NCBI GenBank assembly: GCA_028710985.1
Contig: JAQTTB010000001.1
Coordinates: forward strand, 19,280-83,279
DNA from: Patescibacteria group bacterium
GTDB lineage: Bacteria; Patescibacteriota; Patescibacteriia; JAHJFT01
DNA length: 64,000 nucleotides
Reading direction: 5' to 3'
Every line of letters starts with the position of its first letter. Position 1 is the first letter of the stretch. The position numbers and the translations under genes are program-made. Shown piece by piece: positions 4,013-64,000 of this stretch. The notes under the pieces were generated by a model, which saw nothing but the letters and a program-made list of their open reading frames with translations, was not told the DNA's origin and ran no database searches.

Positions 4013-4732
4013 TTATTTTTTACTCTCCGGAGCCGCACCCCGCTTTGCCTCTTCCCGCCCCTCTTTCACCGCCTCGGCAACATACCGGGTCATGAGCTCA
4101 ATTGATTTAACCGCGTCATCATTTGCCGGTATGCAATAAGCAACGCCGGTTGGATCAATATTCGTGTCACAGAGCGCAACCAGTTTGACGCCGCGGTTAT
4201 CGGATTCGGCGCGCGCGGTTTTTTCGTATTTCAGATCAACCACGAAAATCGCATCCGGAATTTTATTGAGTTCCTGGATACCGCCGATTCTCTGGCGCAA
4301 TGTTTCAATCTCGCGCGCGAAAACCAATTGCTCCTTTTTTGTATATTTCTTAAGTTCGCCTTTTTCCTGGCGCTTCTGCAGATCACGGAACTTCCGGAGC
4401 AATATGAGAATCTCACTAAAATTCGTAAGCATTCCGCCGAGCCACCGCTCGGTAAGATACGGCGCCCCGCATTCAATGGCGTAGCGCTTCACGATATCCT
4501 TGGCCTGGCGCTTCGTGCCGAGAAATAGCACGACTCCGCCGCGCGCCACGGTTTGGCGCACGAAATCCAGAGCCTTCTCCAGGTATTTCTGCGTTTCCTC
4601 CAGATTGATGATGTGTACATTATTTCTCGCGCCGAAAATGTACGGTTCGGCTTTGGGATGCCATCGGCCGGTCTGGTGCCCAAAATGCACGCCGGCTTCA
4701 AGCATCTCCAATATTGTTGGTAGTTTTGGCAT
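4013..4732 (-). CDS. rpsB: 30S ribosomal protein S2
   Basis: 239-aa ORF: LLEAGVHFGHQTGRWHPKAEPYIFGARNNVHIINLEET..., plus a basic/acidic C-terminal tail. Confidence 0.95.
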   Translation of the reverse strand: MPKLPTILEMLEAGVHFGHQTGRWHPKAEPYIFGARNNVHIINLEETQKYLEKALDFVRQTVARGGVVLFLGTKRQAKDIVKRYAIECGAPYLTERWLGGMLTNFSEILILLRKFRDLQKRQEKGELKKYTKKEQLVFAREIETLRQRIGGIQELNKIPDAIFVVDLKYEKTARAESDNRGVKLVALCDTNIDPTGVAYCIPANDDAVKSIELMTRYVAEAVKEGREEAKRGAAPESKK

Positions 4733-4847
4733 ATTAAAAAAATATTCCTTTTTACCGCTGTCTCGGACTCGCTAAGGGGCCCCGTGGGGCAGGATCTTAA
4801 CTTACTCGCCCAAAACATGAGAGATTAATTAATTTAATTGTGGCTGT

Positions 4848-4876
4848 ATTATATATATAAGCCCCGACCCTGTCAA
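4848..4876 (-). promoter_or_regulatory. sigma70-type promoter of rpsB-tsf
   Basis: The minus strand reads TTGACA (4876-4871), 17 nt, TATAAT (4853-4848), about 115 nt upstream of the rpsB ATG. Confidence 0.6.
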
Positions 4877-4898
4877 GAGAGGGGTTGATATGTTAAAA

Positions 4899-4972
4899 TA
4901 GCTTGTAGGAAGTAGCTTGTAGCTTGTAGGACGCGACCTATTAAGATCCTACAAGCTACAAGCTACAAGCTA
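4899..4972 (+). repeat. hairpin built from tandem 7-nt AGCTTGT words in the leader of the 698-aa membrane-protein gene
   Basis: TAGCTTGTAGCTTGTAGGA (4913-4931) is the exact reverse complement of TCCTACAAGCTACAAGCTA (4947-4965), with a 15-nt loop. Extra word copies flank it (4899-4910, 4966-4972). It is preceded by an extended -10, TGTTAAAAT (4891-4899), and ends 2 nt before the ATG at 4975. Confidence 0.9.
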
Positions 4973-4974
4973 AT

Positions 4975-7071
4975 ATGCTCGTCACCCGCACAACCTATCT
5001 CATTACAATTGCCATCCTGATAGTACTGGAGGCCGTCTTCCAGCTATTGTGGCCCAGCCCGCTCTTCGGACTCCTGATATTTGCCGCCGGGCTCGGTCTG
5101 ATCGGGCTGGTTATCGGCGCGCGCCTCCTTCCGAACTGGCGCCGCGCCGAACAGGTGCTTTGGGGCGCAATGTTTGTTTTTTCAATGATTGCGATCGCGG
5201 TCGCGATTTTTTATTATTTCTGGTCCATGAATCCCTTGGCCCTCTCCCTCGCCTGGCTTCCGCCCGCGGTTGCCGGATTCTTTTCTCTGCCAACGCCGAT
5301 CATGATCAATGACGAAGAAAAGAAAAATTCTATTCTTGTAAAAATTCTTTTGGCCGCGCTTTTTATTATCATCACCGCCATCGTCCTCAAGACCGCCGAC
5401 CTGCTCTGGGATTCCGGCACGCTGGAAGCAATCCGCTCGCCATGGACCGTTGTTCCGAAAAACTTTTTTATTCTTTTTTATCTCGCCACTGCCGCCGCTC
5501 TTATCTTTCTCGCGAAATCCAAATCAACAAAATTCGCCTGGCTTACTGCCGGCGCTCTGACGTTCCTGTTTCTGGGCATCAATCTTTTTATTTACAAAAT
5601 CGGCTACGGCTTTGACCCGTTCATCCATCAGGCCACGGAAAAATACCTAGCCGAACACGGCACTATCACTCCAAAGCCGTTCTATTACATCGGCCAATAT
5701 TCATGGGTTGTGTTTTTAAATTACTTTACCCATCTCGGCATCAATCTGCTCGATAAGCTTCTCCTGCCCATCCTCGCAGCCGCCGCGCTGCCGGCCGCGG
5801 TCTATACCGGCCTGCGTCGGGGATTCGGTCTCGCGGAAAGCAAAAGCCGGCTCGCCGCGCTCCTCATCCTTCTCATTCCCCTCTCCTCAATGATCGCGAC
5901 CACGCCGCAGGGGCTCGCCAATCTTTTTACCCTGATAATCATTTTTCTTTCGCTCGCCCATCTCCGTTCCAAAACCCCGCCGCTCATACTTCTCGTTGTT
6001 CTTGCGGCCGCGACCGTGTTCATCCATCCGCTTTCCGGCATTCCGACCGCCATCTATCTCACCCTGATTGTAATAATTAAAATTAAAAAATCAAAAATCC
6101 GGATTCCGCTCGTTGCCGCGGCCGCGGGTTTAGGCGCCATTGCCCTACCCCTGCTTTTTATTTTGAATTCCCTGCTCTCCGGCACGGCGGTTGAAGCCAC
6201 TACCGCGATCCTCCAAAGTCCGGCCGTACTCTTTAGTAATCTCCAATTGCCGGCGTTTTATACCGCGAGCCACTTTTCAAGTATTTTGGATTTTATCTAC
6301 ATCTACGGATACAATCTCGCCTGGATTATTCCGCTCCTTGCCATACTTGCCATTATTTTTATCGCCCGCAAAAAAATTCCGTACTGGTGGCTCGCGCTCG
6401 TGATGTTTGCCATACTGCTGGTCAACTATTTTTTCTTACAAAATGCGGTTGAATTTTCTTTTCTTATTTCCTACGAGCGCGGCGCCTATGCCGAGCGCGT
6501 GCTTGCGCTCGCGCAATTTTTTCTATATCCGTTTTTCATTCTCGGCGTAATCGCCTGGGTTGGCCGGGCCTGGCGCGGACCGTGGGCCGTACGCGCGGTT
6601 ATTATTCTCTTTCTCGCCGCCTGCCTTAGCGCCTCCCTCTATCTCTCCTACCCGCGGCAAGACGCCCTGGAAATCTCAAAGGGCATTAATGTTTCAAAAA
6701 GCGATTTGGCCGCCGTGCAATGGGTTGAACGCGACGCACCGAATGATGAGTTCATCGCGCTCGCGAATCAAACTGTGGCCGCCGCCGCTTTGCATGAATT
6801 TGGATTTAAAAAATATTTTGGCGACAAATTCTACTATCCCATCCCGACCGGCGGCGAACTCTACCAGTATTATCTCAAAATGTCATATGAATCACCCTCG
6901 GCCGTAACCATGCGCCAGGCAATGGACTTGGTCGGAGTAAATTACGGATATTTTATCATCAACGATTATTGGTGGAATTCGGAAAAAATAATTGAAGATG
7001 CTAAACTCCAGGCCGGCTCGTGGCAGGAGATTGACGAAGGGAAAATTTATATTTTCAAATATAAAAAATAA
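4975..7071 (+). CDS. large polytopic membrane protein with C-terminal soluble domain (GT-C-like or polymerase-like; family not recognised)
   Basis: 698-aa ORF with more than 12 predicted hydrophobic helices, then a ~150-aa hydrophilic C-terminal domain (YPRQDALEISKGINVSKSDL...IYIFKYKK). No Shine-Dalgarno sequence is visible upstream. Confidence 0.6.
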   Translation: MLVTRTTYLITIAILIVLEAVFQLLWPSPLFGLLIFAAGLGLIGLVIGARLLPNWRRAEQVLWGAMFVFSMIAIAVAIFYYFWSMNPLALSLAWLPPAVAGFFSLPTPIMINDEEKKNSILVKILLAALFIIITAIVLKTADLLWDSGTLEAIRSPWTVVPKNFFILFYLATAAALIFLAKSKSTKFAWLTAGALTFLFLGINLFIYKIGYGFDPFIHQATEKYLAEHGTITPKPFYYIGQYSWVVFLNYFTHLGINLLDKLLLPILAAAALPAAVYTGLRRGFGLAESKSRLAALLILLIPLSSMIATTPQGLANLFTLIIIFLSLAHLRSKTPPLILLVVLAAATVFIHPLSGIPTAIYLTLIVIIKIKKSKIRIPLVAAAAGLGAIALPLLFILNSLLSGTAVEATTAILQSPAVLFSNLQLPAFYTASHFSSILDFIYIYGYNLAWIIPLLAILAIIFIARKKIPYWWLALVMFAILLVNYFFLQNAVEFSFLISYERGAYAERVLALAQFFLYPFFILGVIAWVGRAWRGPWAVRAVIILFLAACLSASLYLSYPRQDALEISKGINVSKSDLAAVQWVERDAPNDEFIALANQTVAAAALHEFGFKKYFGDKFYYPIPTGGELYQYYLKMSYESPSAVTMRQAMDLVGVNYGYFIINDYWWNSEKIIEDAKLQAGSWQEIDEGKIYIFKYKK

Positions 7072-7109: not shown

Positions 7110-8275
7110 TATTTTACCAACTCCAGCAATTTGCTGATATAATTTTCCAGTCCATATTCCGCCACCGTCTTCCGACAGGCCTCGCTCATGCCCGCAAGCC
7201 GCGCCGGATCCGCTATGAACGGCTTAATTTTCGCAAGCAGCTCGTCTTTCGCCCCCGGCGTAAAAGTCCACCCGTTCTCCCCTTGGCGCACGAGCTCCCC
7301 GGCTCCGCCAATGCGCGATACAAGCACCGGCACTCCGGCAGCCAGGCTCTCGGAGATTACGGCCGGCGAATTCTCGTAGCAAAATGACGGCACGATGGCG
7401 AGATCCGCCCCGGAAAAAAGTCGTCCAATCTCTTCACGCGGCCGCGGACCTAAAATATTTATTCGCGCATCGCCCGCGGCGATTTTTTTTATTTCTCCAA
7501 GATCCGAACCACCACCCGCAACCGCAAGATGCCAATCGCCGGGCAGATCCTTAAGGGTTTCAACCAGCCACCGCGCGCCCTTGTGTTTCTCAATCTGGCC
7601 GAGATACAGCAGATTAAGCCCGGGGTGCAATATTTTTTCCGCCATCCCTGCCAGGGGCGCGGGATTCGGCAAAACCTCAACGCGCGAGTCTTTAAAAAAT
7701 CCCTTATTTTTATAAAATTCCGCGAGCCAGCGCGACGGCGAAACAATGAGCCGCGGCGAACCAAAAAGCCGGCGCGAGTACGCTTCCCAGATCTTCCGCA
7801 CGAACGAACGCTCCGCCTTTGCTTCTTCCCCCCAGAGCATGAGTCCGTTCGGCGCAGAAAGCTGAATGTCGTGTGCCACGTGCACCCAGCGCTCGCTCTC
7901 TGCCTTGAGCGCCAAAACTCCGAGCATGCCCAGGCCCCTAAGATTATGGCTTACGATAAGATCCGGCACTTCTTCCCTAATCGCGCGCCGCATCATGCCC
8001 AAACCCGCAAGGCTCATGGCGTCCAGCGCGTGCCAGATCGCGCGCGCCGCAAAACCGTGCTCTCCGATATTTTTATACCAAAAAATATTAAGCGGAAAAA
8101 AGCGGCAAATTTTAATGCCATCCGCCTTGTCGCAGGCAAAACCGCGCGGACCGCTCGAGAGCACCGCCACCTCGTGCCCGGCATCGCGAAACCCGCGCGC
8201 CTGGAGTTCAGCCACCCGCTCGGCTCCGCCCCGCGCCTCGGGCGGATACAAATTTGAGACAATCAGAATCTTCAT
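7109..8275 (-). CDS. glycosyltransferase, GT-B fold, family 4-like
   Basis: 388-aa ORF with N-terminus MKILIVSNLYPPEARGGAERV and the C-terminal E-x7-E region CYENSPAVISESLAAGVPVLVSRIGGAGELV. Confidence 0.85.
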   Translation of the reverse strand: MKILIVSNLYPPEARGGAERVAELQARGFRDAGHEVAVLSSGPRGFACDKADGIKICRFFPLNIFWYKNIGEHGFAARAIWHALDAMSLAGLGMMRRAIREEVPDLIVSHNLRGLGMLGVLALKAESERWVHVAHDIQLSAPNGLMLWGEEAKAERSFVRKIWEAYSRRLFGSPRLIVSPSRWLAEFYKNKGFFKDSRVEVLPNPAPLAGMAEKILHPGLNLLYLGQIEKHKGARWLVETLKDLPGDWHLAVAGGGSDLGEIKKIAAGDARINILGPRPREEIGRLFSGADLAIVPSFCYENSPAVISESLAAGVPVLVSRIGGAGELVRQGENGWTFTPGAKDELLAKIKPFIADPARLAGMSEACRKTVAEYGLENYISKLLELVK

Positions 8276-9420
8276 AATTTAAAATATTGCCCACGCATCT
8301 TCCCGACGATTACCGGCCAGGTAAATTCCGCCTCAATCCTCTCGCGCGCCCGCTCCCCCATTTCTTTTACACTCTCCGGATCCGCGGCCATATCGTTAAT
8401 CGCCTTGGCAAGGCCGTTAACATCCTTCGGCGCCACCAGCGCGCCGGTTCTGCCGTCCTGCACCACATAGCGCACGCCCGGAAGACTGCTCGCGATCACC
8501 GGTTTTCCGCAGGCGCCGGCTTCGAGCGCCACGAGCCCGTAGGCTTCGGATTTATCAACCGAAGGAAATGTGAGCGCGTCGGCCAAATTATAATATTGCG
8601 GCAATTCGCGGTCATCCACTCCCCCGGCAAAAAATACGCGCTCCCCCAGGCCGGCGGAGGCGACGATCTGCTCAAACTCCGGCCGGCGGTCGCCGTCTCC
8701 CACGACAAGCAATTTAATCTTTTTATCTTTGACTGTCTTTACTGCCTCAATCAATTTATCCAGTCCCTTGAAATAATGCGCGCGGTCCAATCCGCCGACA
8801 AAGAGCAGGACAAAATCGCTGGCTAGAATATTATATTTTACGGCGAGCGTCTCCAGCCGGTGGCCGGGCGAAAAAAATTTCTCGTCCACCCCGAGATTTG
8901 AAACCACGAATTTTTCCGGATCCTGAGCCACGAATTTCGCCAGATCCCCGGCCTGGGCGTAATCAAGCGTGGATACAAAAACCTTATCCGCGGCCGCGAG
9001 AATCCGCCGCAAAAATAACCGCCGGTATAATCTGAAAAACAACCCTATTGCTCCCCTTCCTACCGTATCCATATGATACGTAACAACCAGTTTGTTCTTT
9101 TGTTCTTTTGTTCTTTTGTTCTTTTTCCAAAAAAGAGCCGCTTCCGCTCCGCCAAAAAACGGATAGTGCAAATGAACGACATCAAATCCGTCCAGCATGT
9201 CCGCAAGATGCGGCACCCAGGCGGCATTGCCGTAGCGGATGACCGGCTTAAGATAAATTACGTTAAAATCAAACTTCAGCCGCTCGGCTCCCCGGGGCGT
9301 CGGGCAAAACACCGTCACCTCGTCGCCGAGACGCGCGAGCTCGCGCGCGTGCGCGTATGCCACGTTGCCCATACCGCCGCGATAAGGAGGAAATGTCGAT
9401 GTGATTATCGCTATCCTCAT
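8272..9420 (-). CDS. glycosyltransferase, GT4-like, carrying an internal 8-nt x4 tandem repeat
   Basis: 382-aa ORF: MRIAIITSTFPPYRGGMGNVAY...KSEAYGLVALEAGACGKPVIASSLPGV. 4-nt overlap with the downstream GT4. Confidence 0.85.
   Translation of the reverse strand: MRIAIITSTFPPYRGGMGNVAYAHARELARLGDEVTVFCPTPRGAERLKFDFNVIYLKPVIRYGNAAWVPHLADMLDGFDVVHLHYPFFGGAEAALFWKKNKRTKEQKNKLVVTYHMDTVGRGAIGLFFRLYRRLFLRRILAAADKVFVSTLDYAQAGDLAKFVAQDPEKFVVSNLGVDEKFFSPGHRLETLAVKYNILASDFVLLFVGGLDRAHYFKGLDKLIEAVKTVKDKKIKLLVVGDGDRRPEFEQIVASAGLGERVFFAGGVDDRELPQYYNLADALTFPSVDKSEAYGLVALEAGACGKPVIASSLPGVRYVVQDGRTGALVAPKDVNGLAKAINDMAADPESVKEMGERARERIEAEFTWPVIVGKMRGQYFKL
9091..9122 (-). repeat. perfect octanucleotide tandem repeat (TTTGTTCT)x4; sense strand (AGAACAAA)x4
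   Basis: Four exact contiguous copies read directly (9091-98, 9099-106, 9107-114, 9115-122). They encode codons ~100-110 (KKNKRTKEQKNK) of the GT4 gene. The unit length is not a multiple of 3. Confidence 0.95.
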
Positions 9421-9450
9421 AAATTAATCAGCTTCGATGCCTTGTTTGGT

Positions 9451-9593
9451 TTAGTCAAAAGTTAAAAGTCAAAAGTCCAAAGTCAAGTCTAAAATTTTTT
9501 AGTCCAATCTCTCCAGCTGAATGTATCTATAACTTTTTGACTTTTAACTCAACTTTTAACTTTAGACTTTAGACTTTTAACTACAAAACAAAC
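9451..9593. repeat. intergenic inverted block of 7-nt periodic words (AAAGTYN x5 versus CTTTWRA x5-6)
   Basis: The left block, 9451-9494, carries GTTAAAAGTCAAAA (9461-9474) and AAGTCTAAA (9485-9493). The right block carries their complements: TTTTGACTTTTAAC (9535-9548, 14/14), GACTTTTAAC again (9572-9581) and TTTAGACTT twice (9561-9569, 9568-9576). It fills the 173-nt gap between two co-directional GT genes. Confidence 0.75.
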
Positions 9594-10712
9594 CTACCAA
9601 AATATAATTAGTCGTGCAATTAAAAAATAAAGATTAAACAACGGATTAGCGATTTTAAGCGCCCAATTATTAATTTCCTGATACTCAATCTTCCCTGTGA
9701 AATGACGAAGCACTTCTTTATCCCCGATACTTCTCGCGCGCGCGATTCTCGCGTGCTTGACGAAGAGATACGGCCAGTGCCACGGCGCGATCATCCAAAG
9801 ATATGCCTTAAGCTTCTCGCGCCACCAGCCGGACTTGATGGAAAAAATAAACTGCCCGAGCTCCATCGCGAGAAAGGCCGGCAGAAACACGAGCTGGGTC
9901 AGAAATTTATAATCGCAAAAATATAAAATAAAACGATTTCGCTCCATCCAGTAATATTTTGAAATACTCCGGCTGAATTCATATTCGTGATACACAACCG
10001 ACCGCGGCGCGAGCACGTTCACGAACCCGCCAAGCCGGAGCCGCCAGCCCAGATCCAGGTCTTCGTGATACGCAAAAAGTTTTTCATCAAAAAGCCCGGC
10101 ATCGCGCAAGGCGCCGATCTTGTATAAAACCCCGGCTCCGGAGCCGTAAGCAATTTCCGGAAGCCCGATAAAATCGCGTTCGCTCCGCGCCGCGCGCGAA
10201 CCGCCGCAAAATCCGAATCCCAGATAATGAATCATGTTGCCCGACGAATTAATGAGTCCGCGCTCGGGCCAGAGCGCGAGCAGAGACTGCACCGAACCGA
10301 TTTTCTGATTTGATTCCGCCGCATCGACGGCATGGCGCAAAAAATCCGGCTCAACCCGCGTATCGTAATTTATTAAATAAACATAATCAAAACCCTGCAC
10401 CTGCCTGCCGGTAGGCAGGGCCATTGCATACTCAATCGCGCGGTTGTTTCCGCCGGCAAAGCCGAGATTCGTGTTCATGGGCATAAAGTGAATCTTCGGC
10501 AGCCCCTGGGGCGGCGACTGCATTATCTCCAGAATGCGCTCGCGCGACCCGTCGGTTGACGCATTGTCAACAATAACAAGCTCAACCGCCTCCCGCGGAT
10601 AATCCAAGAGCGCGAGCGATTCAATCCAGGCATCTAAAAAACGCCGCGCCTTCCAGAGCACGGCGATAATTGCCACTCGTTTTACATCCTGATTATTCAT
10701 GCTTTTTTGCAT
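9594..10712 (-). CDS. glycosyltransferase family 2 (rhamnosyltransferase-like)
   Basis: VAIIAVLWKARRFLDAWIESL...VIVDNASTDGS, then DYVYLINYDTRV and YHEDLDLGWRLRLGG. The ORF-track start at 10838 is an extension overlapping the upstream gene. ATG at 10712 (MQKSMNN) or 10700 is more likely. Confidence 0.8.
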   Translation of the reverse strand: MQKSMNNQDVKRVAIIAVLWKARRFLDAWIESLALLDYPREAVELVIVDNASTDGSRERILEIMQSPPQGLPKIHFMPMNTNLGFAGGNNRAIEYAMALPTGRQVQGFDYVYLINYDTRVEPDFLRHAVDAAESNQKIGSVQSLLALWPERGLINSSGNMIHYLGFGFCGGSRAARSERDFIGLPEIAYGSGAGVLYKIGALRDAGLFDEKLFAYHEDLDLGWRLRLGGFVNVLAPRSVVYHEYEFSRSISKYYWMERNRFILYFCDYKFLTQLVFLPAFLAMELGQFIFSIKSGWWREKLKAYLWMIAPWHWPYLFVKHARIARARSIGDKEVLRHFTGKIEYQEINNWALKIANPLFNLYFLIARLIIFW

Positions 10713-13082: not shown

Positions 13083-13114
13083 TTTGTTCCATTGTTCTAT
13101 TGTTTTATTGTTCT
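13083..13114 (-). repeat. 8-nt periodic word array (sense AGAACAAT AAAACAAT AGAACAAT GGAACAAA) across the GtrA-like stop codon
   Basis: The plus strand reads TTTGTTCC ATTGTTCT ATTGTTTT ATTGTTCT. This is the same word family as 9091-9122 and 53967-54074. The stop codon is at 13097-13099. Confidence 0.8.
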
Positions 13115-13552
13115 CTTAAAAATGAATATTTTCTGAAAAAAGAAATTAATAAAATAGAGAATGGCATACACCACAAATTTTGCCGCCACGTCCCAGATTC
13201 CGAGGTAATGCACCGTGACAAACAGCAGGCCTTCGCCGATCAAAAAAACCACAAGCGCGTTAATCCAATAAACCGCATACTGCCTGACCACGCGCTTATC
13301 CGTATCGCCGAAAGTATAAGTCTTGTTAAACCAATAACCCACGATCGCGCCGAGCGTCATGCTCACAAAATTCGCCAAAAGATAATGTATGCCGAAAATT
13401 TTTGTGAGCAATAGATACGTCCCAAAATCAACGCCGGTCGCCCCGGTCCCCACGATCGTGAACCGCCACAGCTGTTTGATGGTTTGAAAAAGATTTGATT
13501 TTTGAGATATATTTTTGAGATTTGAGATTTGAGATTTGAGATTATCTTCCAT
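13097..13552 (-). CDS. GtrA-like family membrane protein (putative lipid-linked sugar translocase)
   Basis: 151-aa ORF with 4 TM helices: RFTIVGTGATGVDFGTYLLL...LANFVSMTLGAIVGYWFNKTYTF. Confidence 0.75.
   Translation of the reverse strand: MEDNLKSQISNLKNISQKSNLFQTIKQLWRFTIVGTGATGVDFGTYLLLTKIFGIHYLLANFVSMTLGAIVGYWFNKTYTFGDTDKRVVRQYAVYWINALVVFLIGEGLLFVTVHYLGIWDVAAKFVVYAILYFINFFFQKIFIFKRTIKQ
13514..13541 (-). repeat. perfect heptanucleotide tandem repeat (TTTGAGA)x4 in codons 4-13 of the GtrA-like gene
   Basis: Exact copies at 13514-20, 13521-27, 13528-34 and 13535-41, plus an isolated fifth copy at 13501-07. The array also lies in the divergent promoter region of the priming transferase gene. 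Confidence 0.95.
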
Positions 13553-41337: not shown

Positions 41338-41396
41338 GAACGAATTTTTGGCTATATCAAGAGAAAAAACAAAAAAAAGAAATAGAGAAAAAGACT

Positions 41397-41789
41397 ATGG
41401 GCGAAACTATCAAATCATTTGAGGACTTGCTCGTTTGGCAAGAGTCGCACAAGCTCATGATTGACGCTTATGGGTTCGCGGACCGCTATTTGCCGCCGGA
41501 AGAAAAATACAATCGCATTTCTCAAATAAAACGCTGTTCAAGCTCAATCCCTGCCAATATCGCCGAAGGTTATGGTCGATTTCATTTCTTGGAAAATATC
41601 CAATATTGCCGGCAAGCCCGAGGTTCACTTGATGAACTTAAAAACCACATCATCGCCGCCCGAGACCTAAAGCAGGCTCCTCCGGAAGAATGTGCCAAAT
41701 TTATCCAAAAATGCAATTATGTACGGGCTATCCTAAATAACTACATTAACAAAACTCATGATCTCTATATTGAAAATAAGCAAAAATAG
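41397..41789 (+). CDS. four-helix-bundle protein (23S rRNA intervening-sequence protein family)
   Basis: 130-aa ORF: FEDLLVWQESHKLMIDAYGF...RISQIKRCSSSIPANIAEGYGRFHFLENIQYCRQARGSLDELKNHI. Confidence 0.85.
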   Translation: MGETIKSFEDLLVWQESHKLMIDAYGFADRYLPPEEKYNRISQIKRCSSSIPANIAEGYGRFHFLENIQYCRQARGSLDELKNHIIAARDLKQAPPEECAKFIQKCNYVRAILNNYINKTHDLYIENKQK

Positions 41790-41854
41790 TATATCACCCG
41801 TTTGACCACATTTTTCTTCTTTTCTCTTTTTCCTTATTTCTCAATACAACCCTC

Positions 41855-53702: not shown

Positions 53703-53999
53703 ATGTCTTCATCCATTCGCTTATCCGTATCCGAAGCCGCCCGGCTTTTTGGCATTAGTGAAAAAACCCTGCGCCGCGCCATCATTAATAAGGAAATCAA
53801 CTATATCGTGGTTGCCGGCCGGTACAAGCTAAATTTTGAAAGCCTGGTCAAGTGGTCCCAGCAAAAAACCACGGTGCGCCGCAAATCCGAAAAATACGGC
53901 ATCGACCAATTTGTGGATAAATGGCGCCTCTCCGCCACCCTCTACTCCCCCAACCCACCCGCCACGGAACAAGAGAACAATTCAACAATACAACAATAG
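53703..53999 (+). CDS. small helix-turn-helix DNA-binding protein (excisionase/MerR-type HTH)
   Basis: 98 aa: LSVSEAARLFGISEKTLRRAIINKEINYIVVAGRYKLNFESLVKW. The C-terminal 11 codons are encoded by the SAACAA word array. Confidence 0.7.
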   Translation: MSSSIRLSVSEAARLFGISEKTLRRAIINKEINYIVVAGRYKLNFESLVKWSQQKTTVRRKSEKYGIDQFVDKWRLSATLYSPNPPATEQENNSTIQQ

Positions 54000-54074
54000 A
54001 ACGACCTATAAAAAAACAAGCGTTTTACCTATGCTTGTTTTTTTGTTGTATTGTTGAATTGTTGCGTTGTCCGC
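53967..54074. repeat. two facing 8-nt periodic word arrays around a bidirectional terminator hairpin
   Basis: 53967-54006 reads GAACAAGA GAACAATT CAACAATA CAACAATA GAACGACC. 54043-54074 reads TTGTTGTA TTGTTGAA TTGTTGCG TTGTCCGC. 53976-53996 and 54043-54063 are exact 21-nt reverse complements. The inner terminator is AAAAAAACAAGC-GTTTTACCTAT-GCTTGTTTTTTT (about 54010-54044). Confidence 0.9.
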
Positions 54075-63803: not shown

Positions 63804-63825
63804 CTTCCTTATTTCGTTTTTTTCG

Positions 63826-64000
63826 TTATTTCGTTTTTTCCTCTTTTCTTTTTTTCTTCTCCAGATGCGGCCGCTCTTCGTGACGAAAAACTTTGGTCGC
63901 CGCGAGCGCCAAAGCGAGCGGAATCCATAACTTTGGGCTGTAATAATTTGTATTAAATAATTGATAAGTCATACTTCCCGCGGCCATCACGAGGCACGAA
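63826..64000 (-). CDS. C-terminal fragment of a membrane protein (N-terminal part lies outside the window)
   Basis: Own translation of the minus strand: ...SCLVMAAGSMTYQLFNTNYYSPKLWIPLALALAATKVFRHEERPHLEKKKRKEEKTK*, with the stop at 63826-63828. Not in the ORF track because it runs off the edge. Confidence 0.35.
   Translation of the reverse strand, partial: SCLVMAAGSMTYQLFNTNYYSPKLWIPLALALAATKVFRHEERPHLEKKKRKEEKTK

What the first reader, a model, noticed from the sequence alone, without database searches (positions are those of the whole stretch)
4891..4977. Near-perfect 19-bp (extendable to ~26-bp) hairpin of AGCTTGT heptads forms essentially the whole leader of a membrane-protein gene
The extended -10 TGTTAAAAT (4891-4899) would start transcription just before a hairpin whose arms (4913-4931 and 4947-4965) are exact complements built from tandem AGCTTGT words. 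The 3' arm runs to within 2 nt of the ATG at 4975, and no Shine-Dalgarno sequence is visible. Such a structure should either block initiation or act as an attenuator or thermosensor-like element. It could also be the binding site of a regulator for this GT-C-like protein.
Basis: partly seen in the sequence, partly recalled or inferred. Interest (0 to 1): 0.55.

Follow-up and report, generated by a model that had tools for sequence, protein, structure and literature searches.

The report
Heptad-repeat foldback inserted in gene leader
The hairpin is real, but it is not a gene-specific switch: it is one copy of a scattered family of 7-base repeat "foldbacks", here inserted between an old promoter and the start codon of a membrane glycosyltransferase-like gene in a tiny uncultured (Patescibacteria) bacterium.

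Summary
Observation confirmed. There is a perfect 20-bp stem (4912-4931/4947-4966) built from TAGCTTG/CTACAAG heptads, with RNA MFE about -39 kcal/mol (z -5.7 to -7.3). An extended -10 lies just upstream and the ATG at 4975 lies 2-8 nt downstream.

Interpretation only partly supported. Six of eight orthologous loci (54-64% protein identity) lack the hairpin. In those six the same extended -10 sits 9-12 nt from the ATG, a leaderless-type layout. The hairpin is therefore a roughly 70-bp insertion. Only about 6 of 55 genes in the window have an SD-like motif, so the missing SD is normal here.

The element belongs to a class. Period-7 and period-8 tandem arrays are 5-13x over-represented in 676 kb of Patescibacteria loci, often as inverted pairs. 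TAGCTTG arrays occur in more than 120 metagenome contigs. Foldbacks with the same layout precede unrelated genes (uL23, SmpB, a PilC/GspF-like protein, GT4).

Inverted word arrays also bracket 11 of 12 PF05635 ("23S rRNA IVS protein") genes examined, one of them in this window.

It is not a thermosensor, not an intrinsic terminator and not in Rfam. Most likely it is a repeat-derived 5'-terminal stem-loop with a constitutive effect on mRNA stability or translation. An RNase III-processed, IVS-like reading is the main rival.

The parts
4891..4899 (+). Extended -10 promoter element TGTTAAAAT of the membrane-protein gene. It is orthologous to TGTGATAAT / TGCTAAAAT / TGCTAGAAT in relatives.
   Evidence: Promoter scan. 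The element is conserved at the same place in L003, L004, L009, L010, L011, L012 and L013.
4899..4931 (+). 5' arm: heptad array TAGCTTG TAGGAAG TAGCTTG TAGCTTG TAGGA. The core stem strand is 4912-4931.
   Evidence: The same word set (TAGCTTG plus TAGGAAN/TAGAAAG) occurs in L075, L175 and L181.
4932..4946 (+). 15-nt loop CGCGACCTATTAAGA.
4947..4972 (+). 3' arm: TCCT(ACAAGCT)x3, i.e. CTACAAG x3.4. The core stem strand is 4947-4966. The arm ends 2 nt before the ATG.
4975..7071 (+). 698-aa polytopic membrane protein. It has no Pfam or NCBIfam hit and a GT-C-like predicted fold. Its start codon is confirmed by the conserved N-terminus.
4848..4876 (-). Back-to-back divergent rpsB promoter (TTGACA-17-TATAAT, 12/12). 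Given as context. The hairpin lies upstream of its -35.
   Evidence: rpsB and tsf were identified.
9442..9600 (-). Sibling element: inverted AGTCAAA/TTTGACT heptad arrays that fill the spacer between the GT2 stop and the GT4 start. In orthologous loci this spacer is 12 nt or the genes overlap.
41359..41842 (+). Sibling element with cargo: inverted octad arrays (AAGAGAAA / TTTTTCTC) bracket a PF05635 (23S_rRNA_IVP, TIGR02436) ORF at 41397-41789. The right-hand array ends 12 nt before the ATG (41855) of a GT4 gene.
53967..54070 (.). Sibling element: inverted octad arrays (GAACAATA / TTGTTGTA) around a terminator-like inner hairpin, between convergent genes.

Best explanation
The hairpin is a lineage-specific foldback: two inverted tandem arrays of the heptanucleotide TAGCTTG, with a TAGGAAG variant word. 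It belongs to a dispersed family of heptad/octad repeats that is strongly enriched in Patescibacteria and also occurs in other bacteria.

It sits as a roughly 70-bp insertion between an ancestral, still intact extended -10 promoter and the start codon of a GT-C-like membrane-protein gene. In most relatives that promoter abuts the ATG, giving leaderless or near-leaderless mRNA.

Shown:
- The insertion relative to orthologues.
- The conserved promoter and start codon.
- The repeat-family membership.
- The computed stability.

Inferred:
- Transcription starts about 6-8 nt after the -10, around 4905-4907, inside the first heptad.
- The mRNA therefore begins with 5-7 free nt, then the 20-bp stem-loop, then 8 free nt (AAGCUAAU) and the AUG.
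- The stem acts constitutively as a 5'-terminal stem-loop. It would protect the 5' end and set, probably lower, SD-independent initiation.
- It is not a signal-responsive switch.
- Arm complementarity is best explained by DNA-level processes: heptad slippage plus inverted duplication or quasipalindrome correction. RNA-specific selection is not indicated.
For: Insertion:
- Alignment A2 places the hairpin as a gap between TAAAATAG and CTAATATG in 6 of 8 orthologous loci.

Leaderless-type architecture:
- It is the norm in the family across 70 further GTDB loci.
- It is also seen in this window.

Class membership:
- Period-7 arrays: 92 observed against 7 expected. Period-8: 36 against 7.4. Other periods are at expectation, in 676 kb.
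- There are four inverted word-array pairs in this window alone.
- (TAGCTTG)x3 occurs in more than 120 metagenome contigs, where less than 1 is expected by my own estimate.
- 35 of 124 such arrays have an inverted partner within 250 nt.
- The same layout (5' arm, loop, TCCTA(CAAGCTA)n, 2-22 nt, ATG) stands before uL23, SmpB, a 5'-3' exonuclease, a PilC/GspF-like protein, a BNR-like protein and a Cys-rich protein. A half-element stands before GT4. These protein names are my reading of the translations; no family scan was run on them.
- In L116 the -10 abuts AGCTTGTAGG exactly as in the window.

Not a dedicated riboregulator:
- No Rfam family.
- No terminator on the + strand.
- The stem is too stable for a thermometer.

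DNA-level symmetry:
- Over 14 foldbacks, sense G.U-type mismatches number 26 and antisense 27.
Against: - There are no transcript data, so the start site and any processing are inferred.
- L013 (60% identical orthologue) has a related foldback at the same site, with AGCTTGTT words and TAGGA/TCCTA inner ends. If the two are homologous, the element has been kept for a long time, which would suggest function. The NJ tree could not settle one gain plus one loss against two gains.
- The CAAGCTA-to-ATG orientation outnumbers the reverse 9 to 3. This hints at a strand-specific, RNA-level role.
- No second TAGCTTG copy lies in this 64-kb window, and the rest of the 744-kb genome could not be read.
- A perfect 20/20 stem could reflect selection rather than recency.
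Confidence: 0.5

Rival explanations
1. IVS-like module. The hairpin is the ORF-less form of the foldback cassettes that carry PF05635 genes. Like the intervening sequences of 23S rRNA, its stem would be cut by RNase III. Cutting removes the structure and leaves a short, unstructured leader of about 10-20 nt in front of the AUG. The gene would then be expressed almost as in its leaderless relatives.
For: - 11 of 12 PF05635 genes examined are bracketed by inverted 7-8-nt word arrays. One is in this window, and two (L152, L172) use TAGCTTG/CAAGC-type words.
- Syntenic cassettes (window, L213, L217) keep arm complementarity while using different words.
- A 20-bp perfect duplex is about the minimal RNase III substrate (my own knowledge).
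- CPR rRNA genes carry PF05635 ORFs and short IVS-type insertions (PMC11270868).
- Related foldbacks precede essential genes, so they cannot be strongly inhibitory.
Against: - No cleavage data exist.
- rnc was not looked for; only 64 kb of the genome is available.
- The mismatch pattern gives no RNA-specific signature.
- This copy has no ORF, and its 15-nt loop shows no remnant of one.
Confidence: 0.17
2. Gene-specific riboregulator. The stem would occlude the start region and respond to temperature, a ligand, an RNA-binding protein or transcription attenuation to control this glycosyltransferase-like gene.
For: - The stem ends 2-8 nt from the AUG in an SD-poor genome, where open structure near the start codon matters.
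- A related element lies at the same site in L013.
- Orientation bias of 9 to 3.
- The heptad period of UAG-N4 words formally resembles HutP-type (UAGNNNN)n sites (my own knowledge; not tested).
Against: - Absent from 6 of 8 orthologues.
- Far too stable for a thermometer.
- No U-tract and no alternative pairing partner for an attenuator.
- The same family stands before many unrelated genes, including uL23 and SmpB.
- The geometry relative to the ATG varies among foldbacks, 2 to about 85 nt.
Confidence: 0.1
3. DNA-level element. The inverted heptad arrays would be bound by a protein (operator, nucleoid or transposase-like) or would extrude as a cruciform between the back-to-back rpsB and GT-C promoters. 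Alternatively they act as a slippage-prone contingency locus that varies expression of surface-glycan genes.
For: - No RNA-specific wobble bias.
- Arrays occur in all contexts, including convergent intergenic regions and coding regions.
- The window is a glycan-synthesis region with many arrays, including a perfect 8-mer x4.4 inside a GT4 gene.
- Long simple-sequence repeats are linked to phase variation and envelope genes (PMC4679880, citing Mrazek 2007 and Guo & Mrazek 2008).
Against: - No copy-number difference among the three assemblies that carry the locus.
- No candidate binding protein was identified.
- A 7-bp spacing is off the helical repeat.
- The hairpin lies downstream of the + promoter and more than 20 bp upstream of the rpsB -35.
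Confidence: 0.1
4. The promoter has moved. Transcription now starts inside or after the element, for example from TTAAGA-17-TACAAG (my hand reading). The mRNA would still be leaderless and the hairpin would not be in the RNA at all.
For: - By my hand reading of the sequence, weak -35/-10-like hexamers (4/6 each) sit at 4941-4946 and 4964-4969, placed to start at the A of the ATG.
- Relatives are leaderless-type.
Against: - The consensus scan finds no promoter there.
- TACAAG lacks the conserved final T.
- The ancestral extended -10 is intact and abuts the element, as it does in L116 and L013.
Confidence: 0.06

Closest known systems
Intergenic TAACTGA heptamer direct repeats of marine Beggiatoaceae, also in some Cyanobacteria and Bacteroidetes (MacGregor 2015, PMC4679880)
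   Same: - Tandem 7-nt words of 2-6 or more copies, sometimes interrupted by a related word.
- Mostly intergenic and lying a few nt upstream of start codons in one preferred orientation.
- The downstream genes lack SD sequences and share no functional theme, and include ribosomal proteins.
- The same word is shared across distant taxa.
   Different: - That case has one dominant word per genome and essentially no inverted copies (169 direct sets, 1 indirect).
- Here there are many different words (88 among 128 arrays).
- Inverted pairs that form long hairpins are frequent.
- The host is a Patescibacteria genome.
Cyanobacterial STRR heptanucleotide repeats, 'long simple sequence repeats' (Mazel 1990 from memory; Mrazek 2007 as summarised in PMC4679880), and Nostoc heptamer repeats near promoters and start codons (bioRxiv 10.1101/2022.06.06.494920)
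   Same: - Period-7 arrays are specifically over-represented.
- They lie near promoters and start codons.
- Their function is unresolved.
- PF05635 genes are also abundant in the same cyanobacteria.
   Different: - A foldback arrangement that makes up a whole 5' leader has not been described in the papers I could read.
- The words differ: STRR1-3 are CCCCAGT, TTGGTCA and CAACAGT (from memory).
23S rRNA intervening sequences (IVS), with or without a PF05635 ORF, excised by RNase III
   Same: - A long stem formed by terminal inverted repeats.
- Short ORF-less forms and long ORF-bearing forms both exist.
- Distribution is sporadic and lineage-specific.
- PF05635 cassettes in this window and in relatives have the same bracket architecture as the hairpin.
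   Different: - This element lies in an mRNA leader, not in an rRNA helix.
- This copy carries no ORF.
- RNase III cutting is untested.
- Arms built from tandem heptads have not been described for IVSs as far as I know.
REP/BIME palindromic units of enterobacteria
   Same: - Intergenic palindromes.
- Many sibling foldbacks fill intercistronic spacers or convergent 3' ends.
- Dispersed copies occur within a genome (the L076 hairpin occurs twice).
   Different: - REPs are about 35-bp imperfect palindromes of a single consensus, present in hundreds of copies, and are not built from tandem words.
[quoted passage not shown]
- No RAYT gene was seen.
5'-terminal stem-loop mRNA stabilisers (E. coli ompA, B. 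subtilis ermC/aprE leaders; from memory)
   Same: A stable hairpin within a few nt of the predicted 5' end of the transcript.
   Different: Those hairpins are short, conserved and functionally tested. This one is repeat-derived, much longer and untested.

Membership tests
Heptanucleotide tandem repeats (STRR / LSSR / TAACTGA-type) | Head-to-tail copies of a 7-nt unit, 3 or more copies | tested here: met
   TRF reports TAGCTTG x4.4 and CTACAAG x3.4.
Heptanucleotide tandem repeats (STRR / LSSR / TAACTGA-type) | Period 7 specifically over-represented in the genome or lineage | tested here: met
   92 observed against 7 expected for period 7, and 36 against 7.4 for period 8. Other periods are at expectation, in 676 kb of related loci. 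The source genome beyond the 64 kb was not available.
Heptanucleotide tandem repeats (STRR / LSSR / TAACTGA-type) | The same word recurs at many loci and in many genomes | tested here: met
   More than 120 metagenome contigs carry (TAGCTTG)x3. L075 and L013 also carry it.
Heptanucleotide tandem repeats (STRR / LSSR / TAACTGA-type) | Array lies a few nt upstream of a start codon in a preferred orientation, with no SD | tested here: met
   The array ends 2 nt before the ATG. Orientation is 9 to 3 in metagenome hits. About 20 arrays abut start codons.
RNA thermometer (ROSE, fourU) | Weak, mismatched stem that pairs with the SD or AUG and melts at 30-42 C | tested here: not met
   20 perfect pairs at -39 kcal/mol. 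There is no SD, and the AUG lies outside the core stem.
Intrinsic terminator / transcription attenuator | G+C-rich stem followed by a U-tract, with an alternative anti-terminator pairing | tested here: not met
   No +-strand terminator was found. The stem is followed by CAAGCUAAUAUG.
Any Rfam family | Covariance-model score at or above the gathering threshold | tested here: not met
   No hits at gathering threshold. Only chance sub-threshold hits appear, e.g. a plant miRNA precursor at 23 against 70 bits.
rRNA-type intervening sequence (IVS) | Stem formed by terminal inverted repeats that bracket the inserted segment | tested here: met
rRNA-type intervening sequence (IVS) | Inserted in a 23S or 16S rRNA helix | tested here: not met
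   It lies between the rpsB and GT-C-like genes. There is no rRNA in the window.
rRNA-type intervening sequence (IVS) | Excised by RNase III | not testable with these tools
   This needs transcript 5'/3' end mapping or an in vitro cleavage assay.
MITE / REP-like mobile palindrome | Many near-identical copies in one genome; target-site duplication; cognate transposase | tested here: inconclusive
   The element is unique in this 64 kb. A possible AG/AGCT duplication at the junction is ambiguous. The L076 hairpin occurs twice in 8 kb. No transposase was seen. The whole genome is not available.
Leaderless mRNA gene | -10 element about 6-12 nt upstream of the start codon | tested here: not met
   Met in 6 orthologues and most family members. 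In the window the -10 is 75 nt from the ATG because of the insertion.
GT-C fold glycosyltransferase (the gene product) | Polytopic N-terminal membrane domain of GT-C topology plus a C-terminal soluble domain; fold match to known GT-C enzymes | tested here: inconclusive
   AF2 model has pLDDT 75 and pTM 0.79. The Foldseek top hits are DPY19, STT3 and Pmt4, at E 3e-4 but TM only 0.2-0.3. There are no Pfam, NCBIfam or PDB sequence hits.

The most novel reading that the evidence does not exclude
Heptad/octad foldbacks and PF05635 (Avd-like, '23S rRNA IVS protein') genes are two parts of one widespread system. The foldback would be the element's end structure, and hairpins like 4899-4972 would be its ORF-less form. 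The PF05635 protein (Avd, its relative, is pentameric; my own knowledge) would bind or propagate the roughly 4-5-copy word arrays. RNA-level excision by RNase III would make insertions into operons and leaders harmless. This would link the long-unexplained heptamer repeats of cyanobacteria, Beggiatoaceae and Patescibacteria to the function of the IVS proteins.
Probability: 0.15. Interest if true: 0.85.

Novelty: new variant of a known kind. Interest (0 to 1): 0.55.

Why it matters
For this gene, the hairpin should not be read as a conserved riboswitch-like control of a surface-glycan enzyme. It is a recent or lineage-specific repeat insertion that turned a leaderless gene into a leadered one.

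More broadly, Patescibacteria carry a rich population of 7-8-nt tandem arrays. None of my searches of the paper library found a description of this. The arrays are often paired as foldbacks, stand at mRNA 5' ends, fill operon spacers and even lie inside coding regions.

Nearly every PF05635 gene examined, in four kinds of bacteria, is bracketed by such inverted arrays. Together these observations give a concrete and testable handle on two old puzzles: what bacterial heptamer repeats do, and what the 'IVS proteins' are.

They also offer a natural experiment on how SD-poor, leaderless-prone bacteria tolerate strong 5' structure.

Tried and rejected
- Rfam at gathering threshold on the whole window, and at E<=1 on 4700-5000: nothing meaningful. 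tRNA/tmRNA scan: none.
- Thermosensor and terminator readings were rejected on stability and the lack of a U-tract.
- Covariation in close relatives could not be tested. The nearest homologue among 5.8 billion proteins is 64% identical, and the source genome is not in the GTDB representative set.
- The G.U-against-A.C mismatch test for RNA-level selection gave a hint in the first 5 foldbacks. It vanished with 14 (26 against 27).
- An NJ tree meant to decide whether the window and L013 elements share one origin gave weak and unreliable support.
- An internal promoter giving a leaderless start is weak by eye and was not found by the scan.
- A 'hairpin-bridged SD' was considered: AGGAAG just 5' of the stem with the AUG 8 nt 3' of it, as in T4 gene 38. 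It was set aside because the genome is SD-poor and the TAGGAA word sits at varying positions in related elements.
- PDB sequence search with the protein-family profile: no hit.
- Literature searches for heptamer repeats in Patescibacteria, for PF05635 together with heptamers, and for the tandem word itself returned nothing relevant.
- No strain-level copy-number variation was seen among the three assemblies that carry the locus.
Full report
**1. The observation.** The core stem is 20 perfect pairs (4912-4931 with 4947-4966) around a 15-nt loop. A longer pairing (4899-4922 with 4949-4972, 88%) requires the word AGGAAG(T) to bulge.

Both arms are tandem heptads: TAGCTTG x4.4 and CTACAAG x3.4. 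As RNA the region folds at -39.4 kcal/mol (z -5.7, 0 of 200 shuffles as good). From the predicted transcript start it folds at -39.6 kcal/mol (z -7.3). The 14-mer occurs nowhere else in the 64 kb.

An independent assembly carries the hairpin identically. Another contig begins inside its 5' arm. The hairpin is therefore not an artefact.

**2. Context.** The window comes from a Patescibacteria MAG. Upstream and divergent lie rpsB and tsf. rpsB has a perfect TTGACA-17-TATAAT promoter at 4876-4848 on the minus strand. That promoter stands back-to-back with the extended -10 TGTTAAAAT (4891-4899) of the + strand gene.

The downstream ORF (4975-7071) has no Pfam or NCBIfam match. It belongs to a large Patescibacteria family. 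Its AF2 model (pLDDT 75, pTM 0.79) best matches the GT-C enzymes DPY19, STT3 and Pmt4, at low TM-scores. 'GT-C-like' is therefore plausible but not proven. The region is rich in glycosyltransferase and sugar-nucleotide genes.

**3. Comparison with orthologues.** Eight orthologous loci (54-64% protein identity, same rpsB/GT4 synteny) were recovered. The N-terminus MLISRP.Y is conserved, which fixes the start codon.

In six of the eight loci the same extended -10 (TGCTAAAAT, TGTGATAAT or TGCTAGAAT) lies only 9-12 nt before the ATG, and there is no hairpin. In the alignment the window's hairpin is a clean gap between TAAAATAG and CTAATATG.

Across 70 more distant family members, a -10 element 7-12 nt from the ATG is again the common state. 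In the window only about 6 of 55 rough gene calls have an SD-like motif. Several operon-first genes have a -10 element 6-13 nt from their ATG.

The organism is therefore SD-poor and prone to leaderless mRNAs. The hairpin is an insertion that converted such a gene into a leadered one.

As a contrast, the rpsB leader in the same intergenic region is conserved. It has a consensus structure of 20 pairs, 5 of them with compensatory changes among 4 sequences.

**4. One orthologue does have an element.** L013/L007 (60% identity) carries a 189-bp foldback at the same site. Its 38-nt arms are made of AGCTTGTT-type octads and end in TAGGA/TCCTA, like the window's arms. The spacer is 113 nt and AT-rich, and the fold gives -55.9 kcal/mol, z -5.2. 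An extended -10 precedes it. I could not decide between shared ancestry and a second gain.

**5. The hairpin belongs to a class.** The window holds three more inverted word-array pairs:
- 9442-9600: AGTCAAA heptads that fill a GT2-GT4 spacer, which is 12 nt or an overlap in orthologues.
- 41359-41842: octads that bracket a PF05635 ORF, ending 12 nt before a GT4 start.
- 53967-54070: octads between convergent genes.

In 676 kb of window plus related loci, period-7 arrays number 92 against 7 expected. Period-8 arrays number 36 against 7.4. Other periods are at expectation. There are 88 distinct words among 128 arrays, and some are shared between genomes. About 20 arrays abut the start codons of long ORFs.

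Foldbacks often fill whole intercistronic spacers. One hairpin occurs twice within 8 kb in L076. Other family members (L014, L076, L063, L052, L065) also have arrays or foldbacks between the -10 and the ATG.

**6. The TAGCTTG family.** Their GC content runs from 0.27 to 0.66, and less than 1 hit is expected by my own estimate.

Of 124 arrays, 35 have an inverted partner within 250 nt. Arrays in the CAAGCTA orientation abut a start codon three times as often as the reverse, 9 against 3.

Several contigs repeat the window's layout in front of unrelated genes. The protein names below are my reading of the translations; no family scan was run on them.
- L116: TGATATAAT|AGCTTGTAGG...(ACAAGCT)4A-ATCT-ATG.
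- L160: uL23.
- L207: SmpB.
- L175: a 5'-3' exonuclease.
- L181: a BNR-like protein.
- L107: a PilC/GspF-like protein.
- L075: a half-element 4 nt before a GT4 gene.

The 'bulged' word TAGGAAG of the window recurs as TAGGAAT or TAGAAAG in L181, L175 and L075. It is therefore part of the family vocabulary and not a local accident.

Because housekeeping genes carry such modules, they cannot be strong blocks to expression.

**7. RNA or DNA?** Over 14 foldbacks with known transcription direction, I counted the mismatches that would be G.U on the sense strand (26) and on the antisense strand (27). There is thus no RNA-specific signature.

Syntenic PF05635 cassettes (window, L213, L217) have entirely different arm words yet remain complementary. 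I read this as concerted, DNA-level turnover. The likely processes are slippage of heptads (as proposed for LSSRs by Mrazek 2007, summarised in PMC4679880) plus inverted duplication or quasipalindrome correction (my own knowledge). Selection on the duplex is not excluded.

**8. How it most likely works.**

Shown:
- The promoter is orthologous and intact.
- The element is an insertion.
- The stem is very stable.

Inferred:
- Transcription starts about 4905-4907. The outermost helix (4900-4906/4966-4972) is then not fully in the RNA.
- The mRNA has a 5-7-nt tail, the 20-bp stem-loop, then AAGCUAAU and the AUG.
- Such a 5'-terminal stem-loop should protect the 5' end. In an SD-poor organism that relies on open structure at the start, it should also lower or at least set initiation.

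I favour a constitutive, repeat-derived effect (confidence 0.5 for the whole statement; about 0.85 for the insertion and repeat-family part).

The main rival is RNase III processing, as for rRNA intervening sequences. Processing would restore a short open leader (0.17). A gene-specific switch (0.10), a DNA-level operator or contingency role (0.10) and a relocated promoter (0.06) are less likely.

**9. What is known.** The closest described phenomena are these:
- The TAACTGA heptamer repeats of Beggiatoaceae. They lie just upstream of start codons, their downstream genes lack SD sequences, and those genes share no functional theme (PMC4679880).
- Cyanobacterial STRR/heptamer repeats (bioRxiv 10.1101/2022.06.06.494920).
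- rRNA IVSs with PF05635 ORFs, which also occur in CPR rRNA genes (PMC11270868).
- PF05635 as an Avd homologue (PMC10053308).

I found no paper that describes heptad repeats in Patescibacteria, foldback heptad leaders, or a PF05635-heptad link. The library lacks most subscription journals.

**10. Verdict.** The regulatory interpretation is only partly supported. The element is a new variant, a foldback sitting in an mRNA leader in Patescibacteria, of a known kind, namely heptanucleotide tandem repeats and IVS-like stems.

Interest is moderate (0.55). The score comes mainly from the wider pattern it exposes, not from this one gene.

Noticed in passing
window 41359-41842; L013 1310-1706; L152 13577-14075; L172 2675-3125; L174 1270-1805; L213, L214, L215, L217 (about 640-1194); L219, L220 (cyanobacterial plasmids): 11 of 12 PF05635 (23S_rRNA_IVP / TIGR02436 four-helix-bundle, Avd-like) genes examined are bracketed by inverted arrays of 7-8-nt words that abut their start and stop codons. 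This holds in Patescibacteria, in two higher-GC metagenome contigs and in cyanobacterial plasmids. One cassette sits between cas10 and cmr3. Syntenic cassettes use different words but stay complementary. L218 (Nostoc) has arrays on both sides that are not complementary. The sample is small and partly ascertained through arrays.
   Followed up: partly
window 9091-9125 (inside GT4 gene 8272-9420, minus strand): A perfect 8-nt tandem repeat (TTTGTTCT x4.4) lies inside a glycosyltransferase coding region, where it encodes a K-rich loop (WKKNKRTKEQKNKLV). The unit length is not a multiple of 3, so gain or loss of one unit would shift the frame. This is the design of a phase-variable contingency locus.
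   Followed up: partly
L077 2942-3986 and L079 2959-4029 (Falkowbacteria-type homologues of the 698-aa protein): Four to five heptad arrays (TTACTCG, CTTCTTA) lie inside the coding sequence at conserved positions. They encode TM-like peptides such as LLVTRYSLLVT and LLTSYFLLLTS. The two species use different words at the same positions.
   Followed up: partly
window 4733-4841, minus strand: The rpsB 5' leader, downstream of a perfect consensus promoter, is conserved in four relatives. Its consensus structure has 20 pairs, 5 of them with compensatory changes. It matches no Rfam family. It may be a Patescibacteria S2 (rpsB-tsf) autoregulatory leader.
   Followed up: partly
window 13084-13114 and 13491-13543; 63805-63860: Further single word arrays are present. 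TTGTTCTA x3.9 and AGATTTG x7.7 flank a GtrA-family gene. T-rich octads lie upstream of another GT4 gene. Their partners and roles were not worked out.
   Followed up: no
window, all gene starts (e.g. 752, 3326, 12978, 59394 on the minus strand): The genome segment is SD-poor: about 6 of 55 genes have an SD-like motif. Several operon-first genes have an extended -10 only 6-13 nt from the ATG, which suggests widespread leaderless or very short-leader mRNAs in this Patescibacterium.
   Followed up: partly
L076 2925-3000 and 5216-5422: The same TTATGTG/CACATAA hairpin occurs twice within 8 kb. One copy lies in the leader of the GT-C-like gene. The other is nested inside an outer AGATTTA/TCTTAAA foldback downstream of that gene. 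These are dispersed and nested copies, as seen for mobile palindromes.
   Followed up: no
L013 1687-1903: A second long foldback lies next to the PF05635 cassette in the tsf-rpsB spacer, which is about 4-21 nt in relatives. Its arms include GCACTAGTGTCGCGTTAA plus AATTC words.
   Followed up: no
one search hit table: Many close PF05635 homologues sit on very short contigs (0.6-2 kb). This is consistent with assemblies breaking at the flanking repeat arrays. L002 likewise breaks inside the hairpin.
   Followed up: no
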